Notes: generated from the sequence alone by a model not told the origin. A stretch of DNA of 35,164 nt from Pseudomonadota bacterium (GCA_027625355.1 JAQBWI010000002.1:1-35164); one strand, 5' to 3'; counted from the first letter of the stretch, positions 2,498 through 15,865 are shown. Translations and numbers: made by a program.

Positions 2498-3571
2498 TTA
2501 TTTAATTACATTAAGACCGTCAGTTAAATTTATTTTACCAATATTCTTTGCCTTGTTAAATTCCTTAATTCTATCAAATACATCAACATTAATTTGCCTG
2601 TAAATATCAAGTAGATCAATTAACACCCAGTTTTCTCTTATTAGTCCATTTTCAACTCTCCAAAAATCTAAACTACGCATCTCTAAAGGTTGTTTTGATG
2701 GCGCTATGCCCATCCATCCATCATTAGTTATTGTTAATCGCATATTAGGCCAGCCTGTTTCACAAACATAATTTCCTTCATGAATCCAATGCGTCTGTAA
2801 ATCTTCCATACCTTCAAAAGCTAATTTTTCATTTGAGGAACCTCCTTTACGATCCGGCATAGCTCGTAAAAAAGGAATTTGATGCCAATGCCTAAAACCA
2901 GCTATGCCTCTTCCTGTTCCTATTCCTGCTGGTCCATACCAATTAACCTGAGGGTGCCAGTATTTTTCTAATTCCATAATTTTTGGATCGGGATTACTTG
3001 GATGTTTAGATAGACCATGAAGCATATCAATTACATGGTCTAAATTTTTTTTTCCATCACCAGTAATTGTTAAGCCATCACCCGTCATAGGAGACGGTGT
3101 GCATAAAAAAGCACCTAATTGAGGAACCATGGGCCAAGAATTTGCTTGCATCATTAATTCTGGTAAATCCCATATAGATTGCATTTCAGTAATTTGATTA
3201 TCTTCAATTTGAAAAAACTCATGATACCGCATATGAATTAAATTACCAGTTGGCGGGATATCTAAAAAAGGCTTAAGAAAAGTACCCATATAATTACCCA
3301 TGGTACCTATCCACTCTTTTCCTTCAGGTGTTGTTCCCGCCATAACAATCATATCTCTTCTTTCTAGATCAGGGATACTTTCAATTAAGGGCAATAAACA
3401 CTTAGATAATAAATTATCTAATCCATTAAAGGTGCCAAATGGATGACAAAAATGAATTAAAGAATTGTTAGAAAAATATTTTTTTAGAGAATTATTAATT
3501 GAGGCTTGATTGCAAGTTTGAAGAGTCAATTGATAATCAACAAAATATTTTTTTAATTCTTCTGAATTCAT
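2498..3571 (-). CDS. Tandem NTF2/SnoaL-like (predicted ester-cyclase type) protein, function unknown (paralogue A)
   Basis: 357-aa ORF. It shares PDLERRD, TGDG, YWHPxxxWYGPxGIGTxRGxxGF..HHQxPF and LIRENWVxID....I.VDVFD.IK blocks with the ORF at 13426-14517. Its ATG overlaps the SDR stop (TAATG at 3573-3569). It is the last gene of the transporter operon. Confidence 0.6.
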   Translation of the reverse strand: MNSEELKKYFVDYQLTLQTCNQASINNSLKKYFSNNSLIHFCHPFGTFNGLDNLLSKCLLPLIESIPDLERRDMIVMAGTTPEGKEWIGTMGNYMGTFLKPFLDIPPTGNLIHMRYHEFFQIEDNQITEMQSIWDLPELMMQANSWPMVPQLGAFLCTPSPMTGDGLTITGDGKKNLDHVIDMLHGLSKHPSNPDPKIMELEKYWHPQVNWYGPAGIGTGRGIAGFRHWHQIPFLRAMPDRKGGSSNEKLAFEGMEDLQTHWIHEGNYVCETGWPNMRLTITNDGWMGIAPSKQPLEMRSLDFWRVENGLIRENWVLIDLLDIYRQINVDVFDRIKEFNKAKNIGKINLTDGLNVIK

Positions 3572-4338
3572 TATTTTGCTGTCCAGCCACCATCTATAAC
3601 AAGTGATGATCCAGTCATCATAGATGAAGCATTAGAAGCTAAATAGACAACGGAAGTAGCAATATCACTATCTGTTGCTAGTCGCCCTAGTGGAATATTA
3701 TTTAACATTGCTTGTTTAAATTTTTTATCTTTAAAGAAATTTTTTACTAAAGGTGTTTCAACAAATGTTGGGCAGATTGAATTTACTCTTATATTTTTTT
3801 TAGCCAAGTCTAATGCCATACCTCGAGTTAAACCCTCAATACCAAATTTAGTCATATTATAGACACTTCGATTAGGTGCTCCCACCTTACCAAGCTGAGA
3901 GGATATATTTATTATAGATCCACCAATAAATTTTCTATTTTTTGATTTTAACATCACTTTTGCGGCCATTTGAGCAACATGAAAAGCAGCCTTGATGTTT
4001 AAATCTACTACATAATCCATATCTTCTTTTTTAATTTTAGTAAAATGCTCTGGTCGATTGGTTCCAGCATTATTAACTAAAATATCAAGCGAGTTTATTT
4101 TTTTAAAAACTGACTTTACTTCTTCAACATTAGAAACATCACATTCAAAGACAGTACATTTTCTTTTCAATTTATTGATATGCTTTTTAACCTTATTTAA
4201 ATCATTAAGTGTTCGACTTAAAATAATCAGATCTGCTCCTGCTTCAGCAAGAGCAATAGCTGAAGCCTTTCCAATTCCCTTCCCTGCTCCCGTTACTAAG
4301 GCGGTTTTGTTTTTGAATTCAAATTTTTGTAAATACAT
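3571..4338 (-). CDS. Short-chain dehydrogenase/reductase (classical SDR)
   Basis: 255 aa. It has the cofactor motif TGAGKGIGKA, NNAG, and the catalytic Ser...YNMTK (YxxxK). Confidence 0.85.
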   Translation of the reverse strand: MYLQKFEFKNKTALVTGAGKGIGKASAIALAEAGADLIILSRTLNDLNKVKKHINKLKRKCTVFECDVSNVEEVKSVFKKINSLDILVNNAGTNRPEHFTKIKKEDMDYVVDLNIKAAFHVAQMAAKVMLKSKNRKFIGGSIINISSQLGKVGAPNRSVYNMTKFGIEGLTRGMALDLAKKNIRVNSICPTFVETPLVKNFFKDKKFKQAMLNNIPLGRLATDSDIATSVVYLASNASSMMTGSSLVIDGGWTAK

Positions 4339-4347
4339 TTCTTCTAT

Positions 4348-4363
4348 ATCAATATTTATTGAT
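4348..4363. promoter_or_regulatory. Palindrome ATCAATA-TT-TATTGAT in the HAD-SDR intercistronic gap
   Basis: 7-bp perfect arms seen directly, 10 nt upstream of the SDR ATG (4338). The half-site TATTGAT resembles the TATTGAAT half-sites of the two operator modules. The role is uncertain. Confidence 0.25.
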
Positions 4364-4373: not shown

Positions 4374-5030
4374 CTAATTAAAAATAGAAGTGTCTAATTT
4401 CAATATTATTTTAGAACAAAAATCAAAATTATCTTCTTCATGAAATAATCCAGGAAAAGCAATACATGAAACTTTTGCATTATGTGCAGACAAGGCGCTT
4501 TCTCTTGAATCTTCAATCGCAATACATTCATTAGGTTCAAGGTTGAGTCTTTTAATTGCCTCGATGTAAATATCAGAATGAGGTTTAGGATTTTGTACCA
4601 TCATATTATTACCAACAAAATCAAAATCCTCTTCGATAAAATAATTTTTTAATGCCAAAAAAACCGAGTTAACATTTTCTTTTGTTGTAGATGTTACAAA
4701 TCCTAACTTTATTTGATTGTTTTTTGCATATTCAATAACATCAATAACGCCTTCCCTTGGCATGAGTTTTTCAGTCATTAATTTTTTATTAAAAATGTGT
4801 GTTTTTCTCTCTCTAATTTTTTGCGCTTCAACTGTTGTGTTATTTTTTTCTGCAAAATCCTCTATTCTTTTTGTGCCACCCGATTGTTTAAGCAATAATC
4901 TATAATCTTCATGATCCCAATACCAATCTAGTCCAGCTTCTTTAAAAGCTTCATTGAAAGATTCTCTTTGTAATTCTGATGTTTCTATAATGGTTCCAAT
5001 TGAACCAAATAATAATGATTTATAGGTCAT
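4374..5030 (-). CDS. CbbY-like HAD-superfamily protein with degenerate motif I (FGSIGT instead of FDxDGT)
   Basis: 218 aa. The N-terminus LLFGSIGTIIETSELQRESFNEAFKEAGLDWYWDHEDYRLLLKQSGGTKRI parallels CbbY (FDVDGTLAETE...AFN..F...G.DW.WD...Y..LL...GGKERI). Motif II (VTSTT), motif III (PKPHSDIY) and motif IV (IEDS) are present, but both motif-I Asp residues are replaced. Confidence 0.7.
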   Translation of the reverse strand: MTYKSLLFGSIGTIIETSELQRESFNEAFKEAGLDWYWDHEDYRLLLKQSGGTKRIEDFAEKNNTTVEAQKIRERKTHIFNKKLMTEKLMPREGVIDVIEYAKNNQIKLGFVTSTTKENVNSVFLALKNYFIEEDFDFVGNNMMVQNPKPHSDIYIEAIKRLNLEPNECIAIEDSRESALSAHNAKVSCIAFPGLFHEEDNFDFCSKIILKLDTSIFN

Positions 5031-5031: not shown

Positions 5032-6165
5032 TCATCCTTTCACAGATCCTTGGGTTAATCCAGATACTATTTGTTTTTGAAAAAACATAACCAAAATAAA
5101 TAAAGGTAATGTTATTGATGCGGCAGCAGCAATAGACTCTACTAAATCTGTCATTGTTGTTTCCATATTAAAGTATTGCATAATAGCAGGTACCATAGTT
5201 TGTGATTGACCATCAAGTAACAGAGCACATACAAGGTAATCATTATAAGCTAATAAAAAAGAAAAAAGTCCTGTAGTAATAACTCCGGGCCACATTAAAG
5301 GCATAATTATCATCCAGAAGGCTTGAAAAGAATTACATCCATCTATCTGAGCTGCGTCATCTAGGTCTTGAGGAATATTCATAAAAAATGATCTTAACAT
5401 CCAAATCGTAAAAGGCTGGTTAATTGCAACCAACAGAATAATCACAGCTATTTTTTTTCCATAAAGGCCATAATCTATAAACAATTCTAAATAACCAGTG
5501 ACTAAAACTGAATGAGGAAGAGCTCTAAATACTAATGCTGCAACTAACAACCAAAACGCTATCATAGTATTACTTCTTGATAAAGCGTAGCCTGCGAGAG
5601 TACCTACTGTTAATGAAATTGTCACGACACCTAAGGTAACAAAAGCTGTATTTAAAAATTGTTTATAAAATTCATTTTCTGCCCAAACAGCAATAAAATG
5701 CTTAGTAGTAAAGCCTATCAAAGGTTTAGAAAGTATTTTTAAAAAAGGGACATACTCAAAAAAATTATTTAGAAAATTTGCAATATGAGTATTTAAAAAT
5801 AAAAAAAGTGCTAAAAATAAAGCGATGAAAATTAAGATCAATAATAAAAATGATATTAACTTGTTATTAGTTAGATTATTAATTTTCAAAAAATAATTTT
5901 CACGACTTTTGAAAAATTTAAAATAAATATAAATTGATAAACACAAAAACATTAAATTTATGAATGATAGTCCACCTACCTGCTTTAATGTATTAGGGCC
6001 AATAATTACATTCAAGGGATTTGCAGCAAAAGAGTCAACTGGTAACTTAATCGACATTATTAAGACCCACAAAAGAGGAAAAAGTGCTATAAAAGTCCAT
6101 AACATGATGGAAATACCAACTATCACTTTTAAGGTTAACGACAAATTAAACAATTTGCTTTCCAT
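5032..6165 (-). CDS. ABC transporter permease (CUT1 sugar-type, MalG/UgpE-like) with an extra hydrophobic insertion
   Basis: 377 aa, multi-TM. It has the EAA-loop DAAQIDGCNSFQAFWMIIMPL. About 100 extra residues lie between TM1 and the conserved core and contain two hydrophobic helices (LSFINLMFLCLSIYIYFKFF, LISFLLLILIFIALFLALFLFL). Its ATG overlaps the stop of the upstream permease (6167-6163). Confidence 0.85.
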   Translation of the reverse strand: MESKLFNLSLTLKVIVGISIMLWTFIALFPLLWVLIMSIKLPVDSFAANPLNVIIGPNTLKQVGGLSFINLMFLCLSIYIYFKFFKSRENYFLKINNLTNNKLISFLLLILIFIALFLALFLFLNTHIANFLNNFFEYVPFLKILSKPLIGFTTKHFIAVWAENEFYKQFLNTAFVTLGVVTISLTVGTLAGYALSRSNTMIAFWLLVAALVFRALPHSVLVTGYLELFIDYGLYGKKIAVIILLVAINQPFTIWMLRSFFMNIPQDLDDAAQIDGCNSFQAFWMIIMPLMWPGVITTGLFSFLLAYNDYLVCALLLDGQSQTMVPAIMQYFNMETTMTDLVESIAAAASITLPLFILVMFFQKQIVSGLTQGSVKG

Positions 6166-7184
6166 TAATTCCTCTTCTCTTTCTGTTCTTTGAAAACTCT
6201 TCGTAAAACAGGAATTAAAATTATTACAATTCCAATCATAGTAAGCATTGATGTTGCTGATGCCCTTCCAATATATCTACTTCCTGAATCATCTAATCTT
6301 AAAAAATCATATGTCATCCATTGAAGTGAGTTTAAAAACCCCTCTGCACTAAACCCAACTATTTCATCAAATACTCTATAAGCATCCATCAAATGAATAA
6401 GTGTAACAAAAACAATGAGAGGCATAATGTGAGGAATAACTATGTATCTTAATCTCTGAAATCGATTGGCGCCGTCAACAAAAGCTGCTTCTATTCTATC
6501 TTTATCAACAGTTTGTAAAGCCGCGTAAAATATTACAAATGCAAAAGGAGTTGTGTGCCAAATTTTATAAAACAAAACCAAAAGCTCAATTGACCAAGCT
6601 TTGGCAAAAACTGAAATATCTTTTTCTAAAATATATTCCAAAAACGAAGTTATAATACCATCACCAATAAATAACCATTTAATTGATAAAGAACCAATCA
6701 CAGGGGTAATTATGAAGGGTAATAATGTTATAAAAATTACAGGCCCTTTTAATCTATTTACCAAGTTGTTTACACATAATGCTAAACACAAACCAAAAAT
6801 AAGAACAAAAGGTAATGTTATAAATGTAAAAGTTAGTGTAAATCTTAAAGCTTTATAGAAATCAATTGATTGTATTGCAGACCAAGAATAACCATTATTT
6901 TGGATTATCGAATTTAAATCTACAAATTTTAAAATATTTTTATAATTTTCCCAACCAACCCATATATTAATTTTAGACCTATTTCCTTTTTCATCTAGAA
7001 CAGGCACTTTCAGAATTTCTGTTTTGCATCCAAACGGATCACACTTTTCTCTTTCTACAATCTCTAAAATATCTTGTTTGAAATGAAAACTTTGAAAAAA
7101 GACTAAAAATAATGGAATGGCAATAAAAAAAACCATCATTATAAATGATGGCATCGTAAAAATTAAAAAAGTTTTTTTATTCAT
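6165..7184 (-). CDS. ABC transporter permease (CUT1 sugar-type, MalF/UgpA-like)
   Basis: 339 aa, multi-TM. It has the EAA-loop EAAFVDGANRFQRLRYIVIPHIMP and a periplasmic loop after TM1 containing CDPFGC. Confidence 0.85.
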   Translation of the reverse strand: MNKKTFLIFTMPSFIMMVFFIAIPLFLVFFQSFHFKQDILEIVEREKCDPFGCKTEILKVPVLDEKGNRSKINIWVGWENYKNILKFVDLNSIIQNNGYSWSAIQSIDFYKALRFTLTFTFITLPFVLIFGLCLALCVNNLVNRLKGPVIFITLLPFIITPVIGSLSIKWLFIGDGIITSFLEYILEKDISVFAKAWSIELLVLFYKIWHTTPFAFVIFYAALQTVDKDRIEAAFVDGANRFQRLRYIVIPHIMPLIVFVTLIHLMDAYRVFDEIVGFSAEGFLNSLQWMTYDFLRLDDSGSRYIGRASATSMLTMIGIVIILIPVLRRVFKEQKEKRN

Positions 7185-7189
7185 ACAAA

Positions 7190-7226: not shown

Positions 7227-7232
7227 AAATTT

Positions 7233-8493: not shown

Positions 8494-8534
8494 ATTCAAT
8501 AAAATGAATAATTATTCAATATATTGAATAAAAT
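8494..8534. promoter_or_regulatory. Operator module 1: nested palindromes including the perfect 20-bp TTATTCAATATATTGAATAA (8512-8531)
   Basis: Read directly from the sequence. There is a perfect 20-bp palindrome at 8512-8531, a perfect 14-bp palindrome TGAATAATTATTCA at 8505-8518, and an imperfect ATTCAATAAAATGAAT at 8494-8509. The module sits in the 99-bp divergent gap between the SBP operon and the LacI-family gene. Confidence 0.65.
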
Positions 8535-9542: not shown

Positions 9543-10235
9543 TTGTCTAAAATAATTTTGATTCCAGGATATATGTGTAACAAAACCATTTGGGATGCAC
9601 AAATACCTATTCTAAAAAAAAAATATAGTGTTTCTATTTCTTCTCTTAGGAACATTGCTACAGTAGATGATGCAGTACAAAAAATCATAAACAAAAATAC
9701 AAAAAAATTTTCCGTTATAGGTTTTTCAATGGGTGGATTTATTGCAATAAAATTAGCTATCGAGTATCCTGAAATATTAGATAAATTAGTTTTAATAGGT
9801 ACTAATGCAAGACATATTTCACAAAAAAGAAAGTTGCTTTTAGAAAAGTCATTAACAACTTTAAATAAAAATAACTTTGCAAAATTATTTTATCAAAAAA
9901 ACTATAGTTCCTATTTTTCTGATAAAGATTTGAAAAATACATCATACCAAAATACTGTTTACTCAATGGCTAAACAATTGGGGTATAAAACTTTTTTAAA
10001 TCAAACTAATTTAATTGTAAATAGACCCAATCAACTAACAAAGCTAAATAAGATTGTATCAAAAACTCTTATTATTCGTGGCAAAAACGATAAACTATCC
10101 TCAAATATTATGAACGATGAATTAAATAAGAAAATAAAATATTCAATGTATACAGAAATTAAAAATTCTTCTCATTTTGTAATGATAGAGAAGCCAAAAA
10201 TTTTTAATAAAATTGTTTCTAATTTTTTATCTTAA
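9543..10235 (+). CDS. Small alpha/beta-fold serine hydrolase (esterase/lactonase-type)
   Basis: 230 aa. It has the nucleophile elbow GFSMGG, an acid residue in GKNDKL, and His in SSHFVMIEKP. The start is TTG, 4 nt after the LacI stop. The first beta-strand (IILIPGY) precedes the first in-frame ATG, so the TTG start is needed. Confidence 0.7.
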   Translation: MSKIILIPGYMCNKTIWDAQIPILKKKYSVSISSLRNIATVDDAVQKIINKNTKKFSVIGFSMGGFIAIKLAIEYPEILDKLVLIGTNARHISQKRKLLLEKSLTTLNKNNFAKLFYQKNYSSYFSDKDLKNTSYQNTVYSMAKQLGYKTFLNQTNLIVNRPNQLTKLNKIVSKTLIIRGKNDKLSSNIMNDELNKKIKYSMYTEIKNSSHFVMIEKPKIFNKIVSNFLS

Positions 10236-10236: not shown

Positions 10237-11367
10237 TCAAATCGTTTTAGATGCTATTTGAGTACCCTTAACTAACGAAACTAGTTTCTCATAACAAATT
10301 TTTTCATCAACTTTTCCAAATCCAGCAAAAGTACTAAAACCACAATCTGTACCAGCCATAATTTGCTCCTTTGGTACAAAAGTAGAAAATTGTTTTAACC
10401 GATCAGCAACAACTTCGGGGTGTTCAACAAAATTTGAAGTTGAGTCAATAACACCAGGCACAATGACTTTATCTTGTGGCAATTTAATCTTTTCAAAAAC
10501 TTTCCATTCATGTGCATGTCTTGGATTTGAAGACTCAATTAATAAATATTTACTTTTTGCCTTAAGTACAATTGGTAAGATTTTTTCCAAACCAATATCA
10601 AAAGTATGAGGTCCCTCATAATTTCCCCAGCAGATATGCATTCTAATTTTGTCATGTGAAACTAATGCCAATGAATGATTAAGAGCTTCAATTTGTTTTT
10701 CAGCCCGCAGCAAAAAACTTTCTTCATCTAATTCTTTAAAACTCATATGCCTTGCTAATGCTAAATCTGGACAATCAACTTGCAAGAATAAATTATTAGA
10801 AGTAATTTGTTGATATTCTTCTGACATAATCACACTAAGCTTATTTAGATACTCGTCATCATTGTTATAAAATTTATTAGGTAAAAAAACATTTATGACT
10901 CCTGGTGAAGCGGCATTCATAAAGCCCTTAGTATGATTATTAGCACTTAAAGCGGAAGATAAATTATTTATATCTTTTAAAAGATCATCATTATTTTTAA
11001 TTGAGAGTTCCCCAGTACAACACGGTCGGGTATAAGTAGGAGTTCCACCACTTTTAGCAATCTTATCTTTATATTCAGGAAATGCATCTAAATCAGCTGG
11101 TGCTCTTCTTTCGCTTTCACCAGAAAAACCATTAATTCTATCTTTAACATATGTAGCATAACTAATTTTACTCATTTCACCATCACTGATAAAATCAATA
11201 CCTATATCAAGTTGTTTTTTGACAACCTCACTTACATTTTTTTTTACAACATTATCAAATTCATTTTCACTAAAACTATCTCCCTTATCTTTTGCAAAAA
11301 GTAATTCTGATAAAGTTTTAGAGCGAGGTAAACTTCCTACATGTGTTGTTAATATTTTCGTGTTCAA
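10237..11367 (-). CDS. Stand-alone MetE catalytic-domain homologue (cobalamin-independent methionine synthase-like, COG0620 type)
   Basis: 376 aa. It has the N-terminal THVGSLPR and Zn-ligand-like positions MHICWGN (H-x-C), LIESSN (E) and GTDCGF (C). The start is TTG. It is the last gene of the bicupin operon. Confidence 0.7.
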   Translation of the reverse strand: MNTKILTTHVGSLPRSKTLSELLFAKDKGDSFSENEFDNVVKKNVSEVVKKQLDIGIDFISDGEMSKISYATYVKDRINGFSGESERRAPADLDAFPEYKDKIAKSGGTPTYTRPCCTGELSIKNNDDLLKDINNLSSALSANNHTKGFMNAASPGVINVFLPNKFYNNDDEYLNKLSVIMSEEYQQITSNNLFLQVDCPDLALARHMSFKELDEESFLLRAEKQIEALNHSLALVSHDKIRMHICWGNYEGPHTFDIGLEKILPIVLKAKSKYLLIESSNPRHAHEWKVFEKIKLPQDKVIVPGVIDSTSNFVEHPEVVADRLKQFSTFVPKEQIMAGTDCGFSTFAGFGKVDEKICYEKLVSLVKGTQIASKTI

Positions 11368-11374: not shown

Positions 11375-12346
11375 CTATCCTGTTTTCATCAGAATTTGTT
11401 TCCAAATTTCAGTTTCATCAAATAAAATCCATTCATTTTTAATGCCTCGTGGTCCAAATTCAACATGAGATATAGCCATAATATGAACTTCTGCTTGACT
11501 AGGCACTCCAAAATATCCCGAACCAGAATGAACACCATTAAGCGACCATCTGATAGCTGCCTTTCTGTACTGATTTGGTTCATCTAAATAACTCACATGA
11601 TCAACTGAAAATGTTGCATCAGGAAATGATGAAAATAAAGAAGTCCAAAAAGTTTTTACTTCTTCAACTCCGTAAGCTTTTAATCCTCCTGGTAATTCTT
11701 GATTTATTGCCCTATCATATTTTTTATCAACTATATTGATATCTTTATTAAATATAGATTTTAAAACTTCTGCATATTCATAACCTGAGTTTTTTTCAGG
11801 TAAATTTAATTGTGAATATTTTAAATCCAAAGGTGTGTTTTTGTTAAAAGGAACTGCACAATTTTCAATACCCCCTTGATTATCAATTATTTGTTTTGCA
11901 TATTTTTTTGGATCTAAATTAAGTTGTCTTACAATTGCACCCTGATCTCTAACAAGCCATTCATCATACACTTGATTATCCTTGCATGCACAATCTGCAA
12001 TTACTCTATAAATAAGTTTTGCTCCTGTTGCTTTTCCATAAACTCCATCTTTCAAGTGAGTTGCTCTAGTTAAAATTCGATGCGATGATAAATACCCATC
12101 GTTTTCATTACCTATCCATATGACATCTTCACCTAAGAGTTGACGGTCAGGGAATTCTTCTAAAGTTGCATAAGTTGCTTTTACAACTACATCAGGTCCA
12201 TATACAACTCCAGCAGGGGACCTAACTGGAATTCCTTTTGCGTAATATTCTCTTATTGACTCAACATCCTTGTCTTCCCAAATCTGATAAGTAATTTTTA
12301 AAATATAATCAGGTAGATCTCTAAATTTTTGATCAAAACCCTTCAT
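11375..12346 (-). CDS. Tandem NTF2/SnoaL-like (predicted ester-cyclase) protein, function unknown (paralogue B)
   Basis: 323 aa with two SnoaL-like halves (ITYQIWEDKDVESIREYY...FPDRQLLGEDVI and VKTFWTSLFSSFPDATFSVDHV). It is more distant from paralogues A and C. Confidence 0.6.
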   Translation of the reverse strand: MKGFDQKFRDLPDYILKITYQIWEDKDVESIREYYAKGIPVRSPAGVVYGPDVVVKATYATLEEFPDRQLLGEDVIWIGNENDGYLSSHRILTRATHLKDGVYGKATGAKLIYRVIADCACKDNQVYDEWLVRDQGAIVRQLNLDPKKYAKQIIDNQGGIENCAVPFNKNTPLDLKYSQLNLPEKNSGYEYAEVLKSIFNKDINIVDKKYDRAINQELPGGLKAYGVEEVKTFWTSLFSSFPDATFSVDHVSYLDEPNQYRKAAIRWSLNGVHSGSGYFGVPSQAEVHIMAISHVEFGPRGIKNEWILFDETEIWKQILMKTG

Positions 12347-12349: not shown

Positions 12350-13321
12350 TTAATTTTTTTGGCGCACTATATAAATGCTACCTTTATCGCCACTTATATT
12401 TTTAAGGCTTCTTGTAGAGTTTTTTGGAGAGGAGAACGCATCTCTAGGTCCAATTAACACTTTTTTATCATTACATGTAATTTCCCATTCTCCATCCAAA
12501 CATAAATAAACTTCAGATTTTGATGAGGTGTAAGGATGAATATGTGCATTACTACCTTCAAGTAGAGTAAGCCCAAATCCAGTTTTATGACTAATATATG
12601 GTTTAAACTCTTTATTATGAATAGTAAAATCATCTAAATAATTTAAAATAGAATTTGAATTATAATGTTCGTCATCTAGAAAATAATTTTTTTGATCTGC
12701 ATATCGAATTACAAATTTTTCAATTTCTTCAGAAGTATAATGATCAAATTGTGTTAATTCATTATCTGTGATTGGCTCTATAGCTTTTTTACCAACAGGT
12801 ATTTGATTTTTTTCTAAATCAATAAGAGAGTTATCACTTAAAAGAACCATTCCAGTTTCTTTCGCTTTTTTTAACAATGAAGGAGTCCATGTAATTACTC
12901 CCGGATCATTTTCACCTAAAACTACAAACATTAATGCTTGTTGATCACTGACATTTTGGAATCCTCTAAACATATTAGTAGGAAATGAAGCAACATCTCC
13001 TTTATGTAGAATAACCTCACCCTCTTTTCCATCTGATCCCCAATAAAAACGCCACGAACCAGAAAAAATAATAAATACCTCAGCTGTTGTATGACTATGA
13101 AGCCCAGAACCATTCATAGGTGCAGCACTTACTGCCCCAATATTAAACCCATGTTCCTCGGCAATTTTTACATTTTGTTTAGAATCTTCACTTACCCCAG
13201 GTCCCACTAATGAGTAATTCAATCTATCCTGATGTCCTTTTAACTTACCCTCAACAAATGGAACTTTACTTGGTATTAACTCATTAAATCTTGCTACACG
13301 TGTTTCTAAATCTGTTGACAT
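12350..13321 (-). CDS. Bicupin protein (two cupin barrels), function unknown
   Basis: 323 aa. Domain 1 has HSHTTAEVFIIFSG (HxH-x3-E-x6-G). Domain 2 has HIHPYTSSKSEVYLCLDG (HxH-x7-E-x6-G). Both motif-2 regions read P-x-N-x2-R-x3-N (PTNMFRGFQN, PKNSTRSLKN). Confidence 0.7.
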   Translation of the reverse strand: MSTDLETRVARFNELIPSKVPFVEGKLKGHQDRLNYSLVGPGVSEDSKQNVKIAEEHGFNIGAVSAAPMNGSGLHSHTTAEVFIIFSGSWRFYWGSDGKEGEVILHKGDVASFPTNMFRGFQNVSDQQALMFVVLGENDPGVITWTPSLLKKAKETGMVLLSDNSLIDLEKNQIPVGKKAIEPITDNELTQFDHYTSEEIEKFVIRYADQKNYFLDDEHYNSNSILNYLDDFTIHNKEFKPYISHKTGFGLTLLEGSNAHIHPYTSSKSEVYLCLDGEWEITCNDKKVLIGPRDAFSSPKNSTRSLKNISGDKGSIYIVRQKN

Positions 13322-13340: not shown

Positions 13341-13392
13341 ATTCATTTTTATTGAATAATATTCAAAATATTGAATAAATCAATTCAATATT
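13341..13392. promoter_or_regulatory. Operator module 2: array of TTGAATA/TATTCAA half-sites collinear with module 1
   Basis: TTGAATA-A-TATTCAA is a perfect 15-bp palindrome (13352-13366). TATTCAAAATATTGAATA (13360-13377) differs from the module-1 core by one base. AATATTGAAT-N6-ATTCAATATT (13367-13392) has 10-bp arms. The array lies in the 104-bp divergent gap between the bicupin operon and the NTF2/HisD-like operon. Confidence 0.65.
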
Positions 13393-13425: not shown

Positions 13426-14517
13426 ATGACAAAAATCGAAAATTTTAAAACCAGCATCCAAGCTAATGATGATGCTGAAATTATAAATATCGAACCTAAA
13501 AGAAACTTAGAGAATAAAAAAAAAATTAGGATATTTTTAAAAAATATTGCTGAATCAAATCTACAAAACTTAGAGCAAAATTTAAGAAATGCATATCATG
13601 AAAATGCAGAAGTGCGAGCATTTCATCCAATAAATGACATAAAGGGGATTGATGAAATAAAAGATAAATTATGGACACCTCTTTTAAAATCTTTTCCAGA
13701 TTTAGAGAGAAGAGATAATTTAATAATTGGCGGAAGTTTTCAAAATAAAATTTTTGTTTCTATTGTTTCTCATTTAACTGGTACATTCAAAAACTCATGG
13801 TTAAATGTGCCTTCCCATAATAAAACAATTCATCTGAGAATTTGTGAAGCTCACGAAATTCAGGATCAAAAAATTATTCGCTCCCATATCCTAATTGACA
13901 CATTAGATTTCATTCGTCAGGCAGGCTTCTGGCCAATAAAAAAATCATTAGGTGTAGAGGGAGTGTGGCCTGGTCCAATTACAGGGGATGGAACAACATT
14001 TGAAAATCATGATCAAGAATTATCAAAACTTTCAATGGATCAATCACTTACGATGCAGAGAAGTTTAAATGTTAAACCAGAAACAGATCCTGGTTCAACA
14101 CATGAATATATTAGAGATAAATTACTAAATCACCCCCAAAAAGAATATTGGCATCCTAAAATGATGTGGTACGGACCTTGCGGTATTGGTACAGCAAGAG
14201 GATTGGAAGGATTTGTTGATCATCATCAATTACCTTTCAGACTTACATTCAAAGAGAGAGATTACTGGAAAATTGGTCATTATATTGAAATAGCTGATGG
14301 TAATTATTCAATGACATCAGGTTGGCATAGTATTGAGTGTATACATGGTTCAAGTGAGTGGCTTGGATATGAAGCAACAAATAAATCAGTAACAATGAGA
14401 GTTATGGATTTCTATTTACATCATGAAGGTTTGATAAGAGAAAATTGGGTCCCAATAGACATAGCTCATATCTTAAATCAAATAGGTATAGATGTTTTTG
14501 ATCTAATAAAAAAATAA
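13426..14517 (+). CDS. Tandem NTF2/SnoaL-like protein, function unknown (paralogue C)
   Basis: 363 aa. It is a clear paralogue of 2498-3571, sharing PDLERRD, ITGDG, YWHPKMMWYGPCGIGTARGLEGF..HHQLPF and LIRENWVPID...IGIDVFDLIK. Confidence 0.6.
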   Translation: MTKIENFKTSIQANDDAEIINIEPKRNLENKKKIRIFLKNIAESNLQNLEQNLRNAYHENAEVRAFHPINDIKGIDEIKDKLWTPLLKSFPDLERRDNLIIGGSFQNKIFVSIVSHLTGTFKNSWLNVPSHNKTIHLRICEAHEIQDQKIIRSHILIDTLDFIRQAGFWPIKKSLGVEGVWPGPITGDGTTFENHDQELSKLSMDQSLTMQRSLNVKPETDPGSTHEYIRDKLLNHPQKEYWHPKMMWYGPCGIGTARGLEGFVDHHQLPFRLTFKERDYWKIGHYIEIADGNYSMTSGWHSIECIHGSSEWLGYEATNKSVTMRVMDFYLHHEGLIRENWVPIDIAHILNQIGIDVFDLIKK

Positions 14518-14578
14518 CAGATTTAATTGATGTTATTAGATAATTATATATACGTAGAAAATTAATTTAGAGGAAAAA

Positions 14579-15865
14579 ATGACAATTTCATATATCAAAA
14601 AAGCAAATAAAACTGCCTCTTCTGATGAGGTTGAAACGAGACAACGAGTTCAAGAAGTTCTCAATGAAATAGAATCTAAAAGAGACAAAGGTATTAAAGA
14701 AATTTCTCGCAAGTTTGATAAATATGAAGGTGATGTTATTGTTACCCAAGAAAAAATTGAAGAAGTAATAAAATCATTAGATCAAAAAGTAAAAGATGAT
14801 GTGCAGTTCTCCTATGATAGAGTTCGTAGTTTTGCAGAGCATCAACTAAAACATTTGAATAATGATTTTGAAGTTGAATTATCTCCAGGTCTTTTTGCTG
14901 GTCAAAAGTTAATACCTGTTAATAGTGTTGGTTGTTATGTTCCTGGTGGAAGATATAATAATATTGCCTCCGCTATAATGAGTATTACTACAGCAAAAGT
15001 TGCAGGTGTCAAAAATGTTATTGCTGCTAGTCCTCCAAAAGATGAAAATGGTGCTAATCGTATTATTATTTACACTGCAAATTTATGTGGAGCTGATGTC
15101 ATTATGAACTGTGGTGGTATTGGAGCGATTGGTGCTTTTGCTTATGGATGTTTTGGTAATCCAGAAGTTGATATGATTGTTGGTCCAGGAAATCAATACG
15201 TAGCAGAGGCAAAGAGAATTTTATATGGAAAAGTTGGAATTGATTTATTTGCAGGGCCAACAGAAATTGGCATTATTGCAGATCATACTGCTGATAAAGA
15301 AATGATTGCTGTTGATCTTGTTGGTCAAGCAGAGCACGGTCCAAATTCTCCAGCTTGGCTTTATACAACTGACAAAGAATTGTGTGATTATGTCATGAAG
15401 CGAGTTCCAGAATTAATCGCTGAACTACCTGAAACATCAAGAAATAACGCTGATGCTGCTTGGCGTGATTACGGTGAAGTTATTCTATGCGATACGAATG
15501 AAGAATTATGTGAGATCAGTGATAACTATGCTCCTGAACATTTAGAAGTTCAAGCTGAAAACTTAGATTGGTGGCTTGATAAACTAAAAAATTATGGATC
15601 ATTATTTTTAGGTGAAGAAACAACTGTTGCCTATGGTGATAAATGCTCTGGTACAAATCATATACTACCCACAAAAGGTGCTGCTAAATATACAGGCGGT
15701 TTATTTGTAGGTAAGTTTATTAAAACTGTTACTTTTCAACGCATGACCAAAGAATCAAACAAGGAAGTGGGCGCAGCCGCAGCAAGAATTTCAAGATTGG
15801 AAGGAATGGAAGCACATGCGCGAACAGGTGATGCTCGTTTAAGAAAATATGGTTTTCAAAATTAG
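14579..15865 (+). CDS. Histidinol-dehydrogenase-family NAD-dependent 4-electron alcohol dehydrogenase (catabolic paralogue, possibly HpsN-like)
   Basis: 428 aa with HisD-family blocks VPGG, GPGNQYVAEAK, GQAEHGPNS, APEHLEV and SGTNHILPT. It has a GAGGA SD. The context is not a his operon. Confidence 0.8.
   Translation: MTISYIKKANKTASSDEVETRQRVQEVLNEIESKRDKGIKEISRKFDKYEGDVIVTQEKIEEVIKSLDQKVKDDVQFSYDRVRSFAEHQLKHLNNDFEVELSPGLFAGQKLIPVNSVGCYVPGGRYNNIASAIMSITTAKVAGVKNVIAASPPKDENGANRIIIYTANLCGADVIMNCGGIGAIGAFAYGCFGNPEVDMIVGPGNQYVAEAKRILYGKVGIDLFAGPTEIGIIADHTADKEMIAVDLVGQAEHGPNSPAWLYTTDKELCDYVMKRVPELIAELPETSRNNADAAWRDYGEVILCDTNEELCEISDNYAPEHLEVQAENLDWWLDKLKNYGSLFLGEETTVAYGDKCSGTNHILPTKGAAKYTGGLFVGKFIKTVTFQRMTKESNKEVGAAAARISRLEGMEAHARTGDARLRKYGFQN

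What the first reader, a model, noticed from the sequence alone, without database searches (positions are those of the whole stretch)
2498..15865. Twelve-gene LacI-centred transport/catabolic island whose enzyme set matches no pathway I can name
Four transcription units radiate from two divergent control regions. (a) 8447->2498 (minus): CUT1-type SBP, two permeases, a nucleophile-less CbbY-like HAD protein, an SDR and tandem-NTF2 protein A. (b) 8547->10235: LacI regulator plus a small serine hydrolase. (c) 13321->10237 (minus): bicupin, tandem-NTF2 protein B and a stand-alone MetE-catalytic-domain homologue. (d) 13426->15865: tandem-NTF2 protein C plus a HisD-family 4-electron alcohol dehydrogenase. 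Genes within units abut or overlap (junctions at 3571, 5030/5032, 6165, 12346/12350). Both control regions carry the same ~40-bp operator module (reported separately). A sugar-type importer is present. I see none of the usual sugar-catabolic enzymes: no kinase, isomerase, aldolase, glycoside hydrolase or dehydratase. The catalytic complement is instead NTF2/SnoaL folds (isomerase/cyclase/hydrolase chemistry), a metal cupin, a Zn alkyl-transferase fold, and two dehydrogenases. That argues for a dedicated route for a small polar compound, such as a polyol, an amino-alcohol or a sulfonated C3 unit. I cannot assign it to described biochemistry.
Basis: partly seen in the sequence, partly recalled or inferred. 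Interest (0 to 1): 0.8.

Follow-up and report, generated by a model that had tools for sequence, protein, structure and literature searches.

The report
Conserved SAR11 catabolic island, substrate unknown
This is a real, repressor-controlled uptake-and-breakdown gene island, conserved across the ocean's most abundant bacteria and present in several other bacterial groups; what it degrades is unknown, and one of its genes is the one usually counted as a sulfonate-degradation marker (hpsN).

Summary
Both control regions carry the palindrome ATTCAA-N4-TTGAAT (2 hits in the window, 0.03 expected by chance).

The island is co-conserved. A five-gene core (HisD-family gene, SnoC, bicupin, SnoB, MetE-like) is present in 71-80 of 80 SAR11 loci. 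Related clusters occur in Ruegeria, Octadecabacter, Sinorhizobium, Mesorhizobium, Deinococcus, Klebsiella and Vibrio.

New points:
- The HisD-family gene here is HpsN-like: 522 bits to DHPS-3-dehydrogenase against about 250 to true HisD. It lacks the HpsN signature histidine (GRYNN instead of GRY[A/S]H).
- It occupies the slot that most relatives fill with a different HisD subfamily, which I call HisD-X (motif GKFPM).
- The transporter and the accessory genes are mosaic between genomes.
- Relatives add RraA- or HpcH-type aldolases and amide hydrolases.
- I found no publication describing the cluster.

Best reading: an inducible pathway that imports a small polar metabolite, oxidises a C(OH)-CH2OH end to an acid, and cleaves the product with an iron-type cupin. 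The substrate is not identified. Candidates are a mycosporine/gadusol-type cyclic enol ether (about 0.2-0.25), a C3 sulfonate or sulfosugar (about 0.2), and a sugar, polyol or glyceryl conjugate (about 0.2).

The parts
2498..3571 (-). Tandem SnoaL/NTF2 protein A (357 aa), last gene of the transporter operon.
   Evidence: Pfam SnoaL 72 bits in two stretches. Falls in the same family as SnoC in the ORF clustering. That family is present in 75 of 80 SAR11 loci, in Vibrio and in Octadecabacter.
3571..4338 (-). Classical SDR oxidoreductase (255 aa), probably NADP-type.
   Evidence: adh_short_C2 207 bits. Catalytic Tyr160 and Lys164 are invariant. The Ser-Arg pair after beta-2 is kept in 51 of 52 homologues. 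An SDR is present in the Ruegeria, Octadecabacter, Sinorhizobium, Deinococcus, Klebsiella and Mesorhizobium clusters. PDB hits are generic.
4374..5030 (-). HAD-fold protein (218 aa) lacking both catalytic aspartates.
   Evidence: HAD_2 97 bits. Motif I reads FGSIGT here and in all 50 SAR11 homologues, while motifs II-IV are kept.
5032..7184 (-). Two CUT1-type ABC permeases (377 aa and 339 aa).
   Evidence: BPD_transp_1. Weak hits to GlcU/MalG and UgpA models. Only 42-55% identical to the common SAR11 cassette, but 92-93% identical in L055.
7233..8447 (-). Periplasmic solute-binding protein (404 aa) with a signal peptide.
   Evidence: SBP_bac_1. Best PDB hits are MalE3, 5iai and SmoF, at E-values of 1e-13 to 1e-10. 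The SAR11 glucose-binding protein 8HQQ is not among the hits. 50% identical to the Vibrio pelagius cluster SBP, 36-41% to other cluster SBPs, 24% to SmoF.
8494..8532 (.). Operator module 1 in the SBP/LacI divergent spacer. The core palindrome ATTCAATATATTGAAT lies at 8514-8529.
   Evidence: It overlaps promoter-like hexamers on both strands. The equivalent site sits in the LacI/SBP spacer of many SAR11 loci.
8547..9539 (+). LacI-family repressor (330 aa).
   Evidence: LacI HTH domain plus Peripla_BP_3. All NCBIfam equivalogs are below their cut-offs. A LacI gene is present in 40 of 80 SAR11 loci and in most non-SAR11 clusters.
9543..10235 (+). Small alpha/beta-fold serine hydrolase (230 aa from the TTG start; gene callers on sister contigs start 10 codons later).
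   Evidence: Abhydrolase_1. Weak hits to PcaD, MenH, BioH and RutD models. Ser62, Asp183 and His211 are conserved. Found in only 14 of 80 SAR11 loci, but in all of the non-SAR11 clusters examined that carry a cupin (Ruegeria, Octadecabacter, Sinorhizobium, Deinococcus, Klebsiella, Mesorhizobium).
10237..11367 (-). Stand-alone homologue of the MetE catalytic domain (376 aa), a zinc enzyme.
   Evidence: Meth_synt_2 59 bits with no Meth_synt_1 domain. All NCBIfam models fall far below their cut-offs. Zinc ligands His244, Cys246, Glu278 and Cys342 are invariant in 78 of 78 homologues, including Ruegeria and Octadecabacter.
11375..12346 (-). Tandem SnoaL/NTF2 protein B (323 aa).
   Evidence: Pfam SnoaL. 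Present in 78 of 80 SAR11 loci. 46-51% identical orthologues occur in Roseobacter, Rhizobiales and Vibrio replicons. At least 7233 database clusters match. No close solved structure. In the AlphaFold model the C-terminal domain matches SnoaL-like folds only generically.
12350..13321 (-). Two-domain cupin (323 aa). The metal site is probably in the N-terminal domain.
   Evidence: Cupin_2 in two stretches. Present in 80 of 80 SAR11 loci. His75, His77, Glu81 and Arg119 are invariant from SAR11 to Klebsiella and Deinococcus. The C-terminal domain is not conserved and is absent in Deinococcus. AlphaFold pLDDT is 82. Foldseek finds generic bicupins (quercetinase YxaG, OxdC, MncA, vicilins) at TM 0.5-0.57.
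13341..13379 (.). Operator module 2 in the bicupin/SnoC divergent spacer. The core palindrome ATTCAAAATATTGAAT lies at 13361-13376.
   Evidence: In SAR11 loci the site lies about 40-55 bp upstream of the bicupin start. It was not found in the LacI-less loci.
13426..14517 (+). Tandem SnoaL/NTF2 protein C (363 aa).
   Evidence: Pfam SnoaL and SnoaL_2. Always directly upstream of the HisD-family gene in SAR11 loci.
14579..15865 (+). HisD-family Zn/NAD four-electron alcohol dehydrogenase of the HpsN (DHPS-3-dehydrogenase) type (428 aa).
   Evidence: 8v35 CpHpsN E=1e-155, 522 bits; true HisD about 210-250 bits. The catalytic Glu-His pair and the Asp352 equivalent are conserved, but the signature motif reads GRYNN, not GRY[A/S]H (PMC11382572). 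It sits in the slot held in most relatives by HisD-X (GKFPM), to which it is 44-48% identical. The top 120 database hits are at least 97% identical, and the two contexts inspected are both this cluster.

Best explanation
The island is a substrate-inducible system for taking up and breaking down a small, polar, probably algal metabolite.

Shown:
- A LacI repressor gene sits between two divergent control regions. Each region carries the palindrome ATTCAA-N4-TTGAAT, overlapping promoter-like elements.
- The island encodes a binding-protein-dependent CUT1-type ABC importer, with no ATPase gene found nearby.
- The enzyme genes are co-inherited across SAR11 and occur in related clusters in other phyla.

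Inferred steps:
1. Without inducer, LacI shuts all four transcription units.
2. The imported compound is first worked on by the cofactor-free tandem SnoaL/NTF2 proteins (three here, up to five in relatives). Their chemistry would be acid-base: hydrolysis of C-N or C-O bonds, tautomerisation, or retro-aldol ring opening.
3. The HisD-family Zn/NAD enzyme oxidises a -C(OH or NH2)-CH2OH end to the carboxylic acid. In this genome an HpsN-type paralogue does this job.
4. The cupin binds the oxidised, anionic intermediate and cleaves it. Its site is a 2-His-1-Glu metal site with a conserved Arg. I think oxygenolytic cleavage most likely.
5. The MetE-like zinc enzyme removes a methyl group, and/or the alpha/beta hydrolase removes an ester or acyl group.
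6. The NADP-type SDR adjusts a carbonyl.
7. In relatives, an RraA- or HpcH-type aldolase releases pyruvate.

The substrate is not identified. My leading candidate, at about 0.2-0.25, is a hydroxymethyl-bearing cyclic enol ether, such as the 4-deoxygadusol core of mycosporine-like amino acids. A C3 sulfonate or sulfosugar and a glyceryl, polyol or sugar conjugate each stand at about 0.2.

The confidence value of 0.5 is for the stepwise scheme taken as a whole. That it is one inducible catabolic unit is about 0.9.
For: - Operator statistics, and the operator's co-occurrence with LacI in relatives.
- Promoter-like overlaps with the operators.
- Co-conservation: bicupin 80, SnoB 78, SnoA/C 75, MetE-like 75, HisD-family 71, SBP 63 and permeases 60-63 of 80 SAR11 loci.
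- The same gene set occurs in Ruegeria conchae and Octadecabacter arcticus, together with an ABC ATPase and an RraA gene.
- Partial clusters behave like separable modules. Klebsiella has LacI, hisD, SDR, MFS, alpha/beta hydrolase, HpcH aldolase and cupin, without SnoaL genes or an ABC system. Vibrio pelagius has only the ABC system plus four SnoaL genes. Deinococcus and Sinorhizobium add a carbon-nitrogen hydrolase, an amidase and an M20 hydrolase.
- Catalytic residues are conserved: cupin His75/His77/Glu81/Arg119; MetE-like zinc ligands in 78 of 78; hydrolase triad; SDR Tyr/Lys and the NADP-type Ser-Arg; HisD-family Glu-His and Asp.
- The HpsN-like and HisD-X genes occupy the same slot. This argues that the step acts on an X-C-C(OH)-CH2OH type substrate.
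- For the candidate substrate: bacterial (Vibrio) conversion of shinorine and porphyra-334 to mycosporine-glycine and 4-deoxygadusol is on record, with no enzymes known (PMC3083659). By inference only, oxidising the CH2OH and cleaving C2=C3 of that core would give 4-carboxy-4-hydroxy-2-oxoadipate, the substrate class of RraA-fold aldolases.
Against: - No enzyme activity or ligand has been measured for any protein of the cluster.
- Fold and sequence searches place the cupin, the SnoaL proteins and the SDR only in generic superfamilies.
- The RraA-like proteins score only 28-29 bits on the LigK/CHA-aldolase model, whose cut-off is 304.
- This window and 50 of the 80 SAR11 loci examined have no aldolase gene in the cluster.
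- The conserved nucleophile-less HAD has no role in the scheme.
- LacI regulators and CUT1 binding proteins usually handle sugars, not amino-acid conjugates.
- The only biochemically anchored member is closest to a sulfonate dehydrogenase. The island also lies near Xsc and PAPS-metabolism genes.
Confidence: 0.5

Rival explanations
1. The island is an organosulfonate route. A C3 sulfonate (DHPS, cysteinolate) or a sulfosugar (sulfoquinovose or its glyceryl glycoside) is imported. The HpsN-like enzyme makes sulfolactate or cysteate. The cupin, SnoaL and MetE-like proteins are a new way of processing or desulfonating it, with sulfite handled by nearby genes.
For: - The HisD-family protein scores 522 bits and about 58% identity to DHPS-3-dehydrogenase, against about 250 bits to HisD. 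One source annotates it as sulfopropanediol 3-dehydrogenase.
- HpsN homologues also oxidise L-cysteinolate (PMC12814064).
- Xsc (946 bits, above cut-off) and a choline-dehydrogenase/IseJ-like GMC enzyme lie about 10 kb away and are syntenic in about 20 SAR11 loci. CysNC, CysD and CysQ abut the island.
- SmoF, which binds sulfoquinovosyl glycerol, is the third-best PDB hit for the SBP, and the residue aligned with SmoF Thr220 is Thr or Ser.
- A HAD protein without its nucleophile could bind a sulfosugar as a phosphosugar mimic (inference).
Against: - The HpsN signature histidine that hydrogen-bonds the sulfonate is Asn here (PMC11382572).
- Most cluster copies, including all non-SAR11 ones examined, carry HisD-X (GKFPM), which has neither signature.
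- None of the following is in the island: SuyAB, CuyA, sulfoquinovosidase, SQ isomerase, kinase, transaldolase, transketolase, sulfogluconate dehydratase, SmoC or SqoD.
- SAR11 takes up DHPS through a TRAP system (PMC13335735).
- The SBP is only 24% identical to SmoF.
- Amidase, M20 and carbon-nitrogen hydrolase genes in relatives are unexplained.
Confidence: 0.2
2. The island is a non-phosphorylative oxidative pathway for an uncommon sugar, deoxy or methyl sugar, polyol or glyceryl glycoside. The SDR acts as a 1-dehydrogenase. The alpha/beta hydrolase (or the amidohydrolase in Ruegeria) acts as a lactonase. The cupin or the SnoaL proteins act as isomerase or dehydratase. The aldolase gives pyruvate. 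The HisD-family enzyme oxidises the remaining alcohol or aldehyde fragment.
For: - LacI and a CUT1 importer are the usual sugar signature.
- The SDR just reaches the NCBIfam glucose 1-dehydrogenase subfamily cut-off (217.9 against 215).
- The Ruegeria cluster has an amidohydrolase resembling L-fucono-1,5-lactonase (123 bits, below cut-off). Deinococcus and Klebsiella have HpaI/GarL/RhmA-like aldolases.
- The permeases resemble UgpA and UgpE, which import glycerol-linked compounds.
Against: - There is no enolase-superfamily or IlvD-type dehydratase and no glycoside hydrolase.
- A four-electron HisD-type enzyme is not part of any such pathway I know of (my own knowledge).
- Three to five tandem SnoaL proteins, the zinc MetE-like enzyme and the amide hydrolases have no role.
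- The SDR's NADP-type motif suggests a reductase rather than a catabolic dehydrogenase (inference).
- The SBP is not related to the SAR11 glucose-binding protein.
Confidence: 0.2
3. The 12 genes are an accidental neighbourhood of unrelated housekeeping and accessory genes in a compact genome, not one system.
For: - SAR11 genomes are very compact, so abutting genes are common.
- Gene content around the core is mosaic.
- The alpha/beta hydrolase, HAD, SDR and LacI genes are each missing from many loci.
Against: - The same operator occurs in both control regions, at 2 hits against 0.03 expected.
- The same families cluster together in Alpha- and Gammaproteobacteria and in Deinococcota, on plasmids and chromids.
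- The core is present in 71-80 of 80 loci with fixed order and orientation.
Confidence: 0.02

Closest known systems
DHPS catabolic clusters (hpsN with hpsO/hpsP, a transporter, and suyAB, xsc or cuyA) of Cupriavidus pinatubonensis and Roseobacters
   Same: - A HisD-family Zn/NAD enzyme that turns X-CH2-CH(OH)-CH2OH into the acid. The window protein is about 58% identical to CpHpsN and has the same catalytic residues.
- An SDR is present.
- A regulator and a transporter are in the same cluster.
- Xsc is in the wider neighbourhood.
   Different: - The signature His126 is missing.
- There is no sulfolyase in the island.
- The transporter is a CUT1 ABC system rather than TRAP or MFS.
- There are three tandem SnoaL proteins, a cupin, a MetE-like enzyme and a pseudo-HAD that DHPS clusters do not have.
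- Most relatives use a different HisD subfamily.
Ring-cleavage lower pathways (cupin dioxygenase such as quercetinase, gentisate or acireductone dioxygenase, then an alpha/beta-fold hydrolase, then an HpcH- or RraA/LigK-type aldolase giving pyruvate)
   Same: - The trio of cupin, alpha/beta hydrolase and pyruvate-forming aldolase recurs in the Ruegeria, Octadecabacter, Sinorhizobium, Deinococcus and Klebsiella clusters.
- The hydrolase gives weak hits to PcaD-type enol-lactonase models.
- The cupin has a metal site of oxygenase type.
   Different: - Control is by LacI with a sugar-type importer, not the usual aromatic-pathway regulators and porters.
- There is no ring-hydroxylating step.
- The cupin has 2 His + Glu + Arg rather than 3 His (+Glu).
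- The RraA-likes are far from LigK.
- This window has no aldolase.
Sulfoquinovose monooxygenase (sulfo-SMO) cluster of Agrobacterium tumefaciens (smoA-I)
   Same: - A CUT1 ABC importer whose binding protein (SmoF) is among the closest solved relatives of the window SBP.
- An oxidoreductase and a regulator are clustered with the transporter (PMC8795539).
   Different: - There is no sulfoquinovosidase, no flavin monooxygenase SmoC and no flavin reductase.
- The SBP is only 24% identical to SmoF.
SnoaL/AknH polyketide 'ester cyclases' (NTF2-like fold)
   Same: - The same fold, by Pfam and Foldseek.
- These enzymes do cofactor-free aldol-type chemistry that forms a tertiary alcohol beta to a ketone. 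This is a plausible model, run in reverse, for ring opening (my own knowledge, inference).
   Different: - Here the domains are fused in tandem (323-363 aa), present as 3-5 paralogues, and sit in an importer-linked, LacI-controlled cluster rather than a polyketide biosynthetic cluster.
- No tandem member has a solved structure.

Membership tests
HpsN (R-DHPS 3-dehydrogenase) | HisD fold, with sequence closer to characterised HpsN than to histidinol dehydrogenase | tested here: met
   PF00815 449 bits. 8v35 and 8wwe score 507-522 bits, against 210-250 bits for HisD structures.
HpsN (R-DHPS 3-dehydrogenase) | Catalytic Glu318/His319 and zinc-switch Asp352 (CpHpsN numbering) | tested here: met
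   APEHLEV and AYGDKCSG align with ASEHLEV and AFGDKTSG.
HpsN (R-DHPS 3-dehydrogenase) | Signature motif G-R-Y-A/S-H, whose final His126 contacts zinc and the sulfonate (PMC11382572) | tested here: not met
   The window protein has G-R-Y-N-N. The common cluster allele (HisD-X) has G-K-F-P-M.
HpsN (R-DHPS 3-dehydrogenase) | Clustered with a sulfolactate-processing enzyme (SuyAB, Xsc or CuyA) and a DHPS transporter | tested here: inconclusive
   None is in the island. Xsc lies at 25765-27540, about 10 kb away and separated by unrelated genes. The transporter is CUT1, not HpsKLM or HpsU.
HpsN (R-DHPS 3-dehydrogenase) | NAD-dependent oxidation of R-DHPS to R-sulfolactate with physiological kinetics | not testable with these tools
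   A SAR11 homologue from strain HTCC1002 was reported with a Km of 106 mM for R-DHPS (PMC11131964). Which allele that protein represents could not be established.
LacI-controlled catabolic regulon | LacI-type HTH plus a periplasmic-binding-protein-like effector domain | tested here: met
   PF00356 and PF13377.
LacI-controlled catabolic regulon | A palindromic operator shared by the regulated promoters and co-occurring with the regulator | tested here: met
   ATTCAA-N4-TTGAAT gives 2 hits against 0.03 expected, both in the divergent spacers. It occupies equivalent positions in SAR11 loci that have LacI and was not found in the LacI-less loci. Binding itself was not tested.
CUT1 binding-protein-dependent ABC importer | Family-1 SBP plus two MalF/MalG-type permeases | tested here: met
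CUT1 binding-protein-dependent ABC importer | A dedicated ATPase subunit in the locus | tested here: not met
   No ABC_tran protein was found among the window ORFs scanned, which is most but not all of them. The Ruegeria, Octadecabacter, Vibrio, Sinorhizobium and Mesorhizobium clusters encode a UgpC/MalK-like ATPase. CUT1 systems often share an ATPase (my own knowledge).
Known sulfoquinovose pathways (sulfo-EMP, -ED, -TAL, -TK, -SMO, -ASDO) | Presence of the pathway-defining enzymes: sulfoquinovosidase; SQ isomerase with kinase and aldolase; sulfogluconate dehydratase; transaldolase or transketolase; SmoC; SqoD | tested here: not met
   No matching Pfam or NCBIfam domains in the 12 proteins.
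MetE (cobalamin-independent methionine synthase) | C-terminal catalytic barrel with His-Cys-Glu-Cys zinc site | tested here: met
   PF01717. His244, Cys246, Glu278 and Cys342 are invariant in 78 of 78 homologues.
MetE (cobalamin-independent methionine synthase) | N-terminal folate-binding domain, and a score above the equivalog cut-offs | tested here: not met
   No Meth_synt_1 domain. The best NCBIfam score is 103 bits against a cut-off of 406.
HAD phosphatase / beta-phosphoglucomutase | Motif I DxD, with the aspartate nucleophile | tested here: not met
   FGSIGT in 50 of 50 SAR11 homologues.
3-His(+Glu) cupin dioxygenases and oxalate decarboxylases (bicupins) | Bicupin fold | tested here: met
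   AlphaFold pLDDT 82. Foldseek E-values of about 1e-15 to YxaG, OxdC and MncA.
3-His(+Glu) cupin dioxygenases and oxalate decarboxylases (bicupins) | Full 3-His-1-Glu metal site | tested here: not met
   The N-terminal domain keeps His75, His77 and Glu81, but the fourth ligand position is an invariant Arg119. The C-terminal site is not conserved outside SAR11.
LigK/GalC 4-carboxy-4-hydroxy-2-oxoadipate aldolase (relevant to relatives only) | Score above the equivalog cut-off | tested here: not met
   The Ruegeria and Octadecabacter RraA-likes score 28-29 bits against a cut-off of 304. The SAR11 RraA-like matches only the Pfam RraA-like family.

The most novel reading that the evidence does not exclude
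The cluster family is the first catabolic pathway for mycosporine-like amino acids and gadusol-type sunscreens.

The proposed route is:
1. The tandem SnoaL proteins strip the amino acids (glycine, serine, threonine) from the cyclohexenimine core.
2. The HisD-family enzyme oxidises the ring hydroxymethyl group.
3. The methoxy group is removed, either by the MetE-like methyltransferase or, after cleavage, by the esterase.
4. The cupin opens the enol ring to 4-carboxy-4-hydroxy-2-oxoadipate.
5. An aldolase yields pyruvate and oxaloacetate.

This would give SAR11 glycine or serine, pyruvate and a methyl group from one abundant surface-ocean compound. Nothing I found excludes this, and nothing tests it directly.
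Probability: 0.2. Interest if true: 0.9.

Novelty: new variant of a known kind. Interest (0 to 1): 0.66.

Why it matters
- SAR11 is the most abundant heterotroph in the surface ocean and has very few regulated operons. A repressor-controlled 12-gene island found in at least 125 species-level genomes points to a substrate that matters in the sea but is missing from current carbon and sulfur budgets.
- The island's HisD-family gene is annotated as hpsN, a marker used for DHPS turnover in ocean omics. Here it lacks the sulfonate-contacting histidine. It also sits in a cluster with no known link to DHPS.
- SAR11 'hpsN' read counts may therefore report a different process.
- The cluster family also offers tandem SnoaL proteins, a stand-alone zinc MetE-like enzyme and a conserved nucleophile-less HAD as catabolic parts with no known function.
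- Culturable hosts exist in which this can be tested: Octadecabacter arcticus 238, Ruegeria conchae and Klebsiella michiganensis.

Tried and rejected
**Sequence and structure searches that gave only generic answers**
- NCBIfam gave no above-cut-off equivalog for any of the 12 proteins. The exceptions are the hisD domain model and a borderline glucose-1-dehydrogenase subfamily hit for the SDR.
- PDB sequence searches found nothing for the bicupin and nothing useful for SnoB, and only generic hits for the SDR and the MetE-like protein.
- AlphaFold plus Foldseek returned only generic superfamily neighbours for the bicupin and SnoB. The N-terminal domain of the SnoB model was of low confidence.
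- Rfam found no riboswitch, and in particular no SAM element near the MetE-like gene.
- The promoter and terminator scan was not above the shuffle background.

**Literature**
None turned up a description of the cluster, of tandem SnoaL catabolic enzymes, or of a mycosporine catabolic pathway.
- The SAR11 Genome Atlas preprint mentions none of these genes.
- I tried to tie the SBP to the unassigned HTCC1062 binding proteins SAR11_0266 and SAR11_0271 (PMC11485210). No supplementary text or sequences were available, so this remains open.

**Ideas rejected**
- The SBP being the SAR11 glucose-binding protein (8HQQ is absent).
- The HisD gene being housekeeping hisD.
- The RraA-likes being bona fide LigK.
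- The island being a biosynthetic cluster: it has an importer and a LacI repressor, and no synthase-type genes.

**Error**
- One call failed through my own mistake, a wrong reference.

Full report
**1. The observation**

The six-frame ORF list reproduces all twelve genes at the stated coordinates. This includes the one-base overlaps at 3571 and 6165, the near-abutting pairs 5030/5032 and 12346/12350, and the convergent ends at 10235/10237. G+C content is about 30% throughout.

Pfam confirms the domain calls:
- Three two-domain SnoaL proteins.
- A classical SDR.
- A HAD-fold protein.
- Two BPD_transp_1 permeases.
- A family-1 solute-binding protein.
- A LacI repressor.
- A small alpha/beta hydrolase.
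- A protein with only the catalytic Meth_synt_2 domain.
- A two-domain cupin.
- A Histidinol_dh protein.

The HAD protein lacks both motif-I aspartates (FGSIGT). This loss is conserved in all 50 SAR11 homologues, while motifs II-IV are kept.

None of the twelve proteins is a kinase, glycoside hydrolase, aldolase or known dehydratase. I found no ABC ATPase among the window ORFs I scanned, which is most but not all of them.

**2. Regulation**

The two divergent spacers share a roughly 39-nt module, 74% identical. Its core is the palindrome ATTCAA-N4-TTGAAT.

That pattern occurs exactly twice in the 35-kb window, at 8514-8529 and 13361-13376. The expectation is 0.03, and no shuffle out of 100 reached two hits.

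In related SAR11 loci the same pattern lies about 40-55 bp upstream of the bicupin gene and in the LacI/binding-protein spacer. It was not found in the loci that lack LacI. Promoter-like hexamers overlap both sites, but the promoter scan as a whole is not above background. LacI binding itself is inferred, not shown.

**3. Origin and co-conservation**

A scan of one genome per species found relatives of the bicupin in 125 genomes. The best 80 (71-97% identical) are almost all SAR11 single-cell genomes or MAGs, some labelled Pelagibacteraceae.

A tblastn matrix and an ORF-family clustering of these loci show a constant core with fixed order and orientation. Counts are out of 80 loci, and many loci are truncated by contig ends.

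| Gene family | SAR11 loci (of 80) |
|---|---|
| Bicupin | 80 |
| SnoB | 78 |
| SnoA/C family | 75 |
| MetE-like | 75 |
| HisD-family | 71 |
| Binding protein | 63 |
| Permeases | 60-63 |
| A fourth tandem SnoaL (334 aa) | 53 |
| A single-domain SnoaL (139 aa) | 50 |
| HAD | 48 |
| SDR | 45 |
| LacI | 40 |
| RraA-like | 30 |
| Alpha/beta hydrolase | 14 |

The RraA-like identity of that family is confirmed by Pfam.

So the twelve genes are one of at least three architectures of a mosaic cluster, not a fixed unit. The window type lacks the two extra SnoaL genes and the RraA gene, and has the hydrolase and SnoA instead.

**4. The cluster outside SAR11**

tblastn against plasmids and chromids found bicupin homologues (31-33% identical) and SnoB homologues (46-51% identical), lying next to each other in the several replicons whose regions I inspected.

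- **Ruegeria conchae and Octadecabacter arcticus 238.** The annotated regions contain an ABC ATPase, the binding protein, two permeases, four to six 'ester cyclases', hisD, an SDR, LacI, the cupin, a 'cobalamin-independent methionine synthase II family protein', an alpha/beta hydrolase and an RraA-family protein.
- **Deinococcus sp. QL22.** SDR, LacI, two hisD genes, an HpcH-type aldolase, an alpha/beta hydrolase, a single-domain cupin, the ABC genes, four ester cyclases and a carbon-nitrogen hydrolase.
- **Sinorhizobium medicae.** Adds an amidase within the cluster and an M20 hydrolase just upstream of the binding protein.
- **Mesorhizobium.** Adds a GMC oxidoreductase.
- **Klebsiella michiganensis plasmid.** Only LacI, hisD, SDR, an MFS transporter, an alpha/beta hydrolase, an HpcH aldolase and a cupin.
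- **Vibrio pelagius.** Only the ABC system and four SnoaL proteins, next to sarcosine oxidase and purU.

This suggests two separable modules. One is the importer plus the SnoaL proteins. The other is the HisD-family enzyme, SDR, cupin, hydrolase and aldolase.

**5. The HisD-family gene**

Against solved structures, the window protein scores 522 bits (E=1e-155) to Cupriavidus DHPS-3-dehydrogenase HpsN and 507 bits to the Ruegeria enzyme. True histidinol dehydrogenases score about 210-250 bits.

The catalytic Glu-His pair and the Asp352 equivalent are conserved. The HpsN signature G-R-Y-A/S-H is not: its last histidine binds zinc and then the sulfonate (PMC11382572), and here the motif reads G-R-Y-N-N.

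In most SAR11 loci, the gene in the same slot downstream of SnoC is only 44-48% identical to the window protein. It is, however, 73-76% identical to the Ruegeria and Octadecabacter cluster hisD genes, 74% to the Mesorhizobium one and 63% to the Klebsiella one. It carries G-K-F-P-M at the signature position. I call this subfamily HisD-X. It still scores higher to HpsN (397 bits) than to HisD (261 bits).

The window therefore carries a paralogue swapped into the native slot. About ten other loci do the same.

This HpsN-like allele is 89-100% identical across loci whose neighbouring genes are only 56-84% identical. The best 120 database hits are all at least 97% identical. For both proteins whose encoding contigs I looked up, every contig shown carries this cluster. 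This points either to very strong constraint or to spread of the allele by recombination.

One source names the gene sulfopropanediol 3-dehydrogenase. Published surveys count SAR11 hpsN homologues as DHPS markers, and one paper notes that in SAR11 these genes are not in a DHPS operon (PMC11131964). HpsN homologues can also oxidise L-cysteinolate (PMC12814064).

**6. The other parts**

- **Binding protein.** Its best solved relatives are MalE3, an Agrobacterium sugar-binding protein and SmoF, the sulfoquinovosyl-glycerol-binding protein, at E-values of 1e-13 to 1e-10. The SAR11 glucose-binding protein is not among the hits.
- **Binding-protein family.** The cluster SBPs form one family that is 36-51% identical internally and 21-24% identical to SmoF. 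There are at least three subtypes within SAR11. The window subtype, together with its unusually long permease, is closest to the Vibrio cassette at 50%.
- **MetE-like protein.** It keeps the His-Cys-Glu-Cys zinc site in 78 of 78 homologues. It has no folate-binding domain and no model above cut-off.
- **Cupin.** His75, His77, Glu81 and Arg119 in the N-terminal domain are invariant from SAR11 to Deinococcus. The C-terminal domain is variable and dispensable. The model (pLDDT 82) matches only generic bicupins.
- **SnoB.** It has no close solved relative. Only its C-terminal domain was modelled with confidence.
- **SDR.** It keeps an NADP-type Ser-Arg motif. The hydrolase keeps its Ser-Asp-His triad.

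**7. Neighbourhood**

- CysNC, CysD and CysQ abut the island, all above their model cut-offs.
- A Rieske oxygenase, an OYE/FMN flavoenzyme and a CMD-family protein follow.
- Next come a choline-dehydrogenase-like GMC enzyme (597 bits, cut-off 605) and Xsc, sulfoacetaldehyde acetyltransferase (946 bits, cut-off 676).
- The Xsc, GMC, exchanger and CysQ arrangement is syntenic in about 20 SAR11 loci.

This gives the region a sulfur flavour. None of these genes shares the operator or is part of the cluster outside SAR11.

**8. How it most likely works**

Shown:
- One regulator gene.
- One operator type at both control regions.
- An importer.
- A co-inherited enzyme set with intact catalytic residues.

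Inferred: LacI represses all four units until the imported compound, or a product of it, binds. The sequence of steps would then be:
1. The SnoaL proteins carry out the first, cofactor-free steps.
2. The HisD-family enzyme makes a carboxylate from a -C(OH/NH2)-CH2OH group.
3. The 2-His-1-Glu cupin, using its conserved arginine, binds that anion and cleaves it.
4. The MetE-like enzyme and/or the hydrolase remove a methyl or ester group.
5. The SDR reduces or oxidises a carbonyl.
6. An aldolase, where present, releases pyruvate.

Two paralogues from the HpsN side of the family can fill the same slot. This suggests the substrate of that step offers zinc a hydroxyl group plus a second, probably anionic, oxygen three bonds away, as DHPS does (inference from PMC11382572).

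**9. Which substrate**

I could not identify it. There are three classes of candidate.

*(a) A hydroxymethyl-bearing cyclic enol ether, such as the 4-deoxygadusol core of mycosporine-like amino acids.*
- It would use most of the parts. The SnoaL proteins and the amide hydrolases of relatives would remove the amino acids. The HisD-type enzyme would oxidise the ring CH2OH. The methoxy group would be removed by methyl transfer or ester hydrolysis. Enol cleavage by the cupin would follow.
- On paper the product is 4-carboxy-4-hydroxy-2-oxoadipate, which RraA-fold aldolases split into pyruvate and oxaloacetate (my own knowledge and inference).
- It also fits the partial clusters. Vibrio was reported to convert shinorine and porphyra-334 to mycosporine-glycine and 4-deoxygadusol (PMC3083659). 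The Vibrio locus has only the importer and the SnoaL genes.
- No catabolic genes for these compounds turned up in my searches.
- Against it: there is no direct test, the RraA-likes are far from LigK, and neither the HAD nor the SDR has a clear role.

*(b) A C3 sulfonate or sulfosugar.* See the first rival explanation.

*(c) An unusual sugar, polyol or glyceryl conjugate.* See the second rival explanation.

I put these at roughly 0.2-0.25, 0.2 and 0.2, with the remainder for something not considered here.

**10. Comparison with known systems, and novelty**

The island works like a classical repressor-controlled catabolic operon with a CUT1 importer. One gene is HpsN-like but fails the signature-motif test.

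No other part meets the defining features of a characterised family:
- The MetE-like protein lacks the folate domain.
- The HAD lacks its nucleophile.
- The cupin lacks the 3-His site.
- The SnoaL proteins are not in a polyketide context.

None of the six described sulfoquinovose pathways is present, nor is a standard DHPS pathway.

I therefore rate it a new variant of a known kind: a catabolic island whose route is undescribed. Interest is fairly high. The cluster is widespread in the most abundant marine bacterium. It contains a gene annotated as hpsN, a marker used in ocean surveys. And it can be tested in culturable relatives.

Noticed in passing
window 15862-19433 (-): CysNC (bifunctional sulfate adenylyltransferase/APS kinase), CysD and CysQ all score above their NCBIfam cut-offs. 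They directly abut the island and overlap the stop codon of the hpsN-like gene. In other SAR11 loci CysDNC is replaced by a short APS-kinase-like ORF plus a 131-aa ORF with no Pfam match. A PAPS-making module in a SAR11-type genome is unexpected (my own knowledge), and its purpose is unknown.
   Followed up: partly
window 24164-27540: A GMC oxidoreductase just below the choline dehydrogenase cut-off (597 against 605) sits next to a clear Xsc sulfoacetaldehyde acetyltransferase (946 bits, cut-off 676). This looks like an isethionate/taurine-type desulfonation pair. It is syntenic with the island in about 20 SAR11 loci.
   Followed up: partly
window 19481-23187 (+); L001, L003-L006: A Rieske oxygenase (distantly GbcA-like), a 679-aa OYE/FMN plus Pyr_redox flavoenzyme and a CMD-family protein together look like an N-demethylase set. 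In sister contigs carrying an identical hpsN-like protein, the Rieske gene is split into 105-aa and 238-aa ORFs. This is either a pseudogene or an assembly error.
   Followed up: no
window 14579-15865 versus loci L010, L021-L024, L055, L064, L073: The HpsN-like allele is 89-100% identical between loci whose adjacent cluster genes are only 56-84% identical. The top 120 database hits are all at least 97% identical. This suggests gene-specific spread by recombination or unusually strong constraint.
   Followed up: partly
window 5032-8447 versus L094 (Vibrio pelagius plasmid): The window's transporter cassette (404-aa SBP, long 377-aa permease) is closer to the Vibrio cassette (SBP 50% identical, 410-aa permease) than to the common SAR11 cassettes (38-41%). 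In long-read contigs with a 97% identical hpsN-like gene, either cassette can be present (L101 against L099, L100 and L102).
   Followed up: partly
L011 and L062: Short contigs (4-5 kb) labelled as Flavobacteriaceae and Neomarinimicrobiota MAGs carry cluster genes 74-97% identical to the SAR11 window. They are probably mis-binned SAR11 contigs.
   Followed up: no
window 36-2493: Genes for 5-oxoprolinase subunits PxpC, PxpB and PxpA lie immediately upstream of the island. They are unrelated to it in other loci.
   Followed up: no
L025, L044 and similar SAR11 loci: The LacI-less architecture ends with a 284-aa PRK/uridine-kinase-like P-loop protein after the permeases. It lies next to a LivFGHM-type branched-chain amino-acid ABC system. 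This is the only kinase-like gene seen in any version of the cluster.
   Followed up: no
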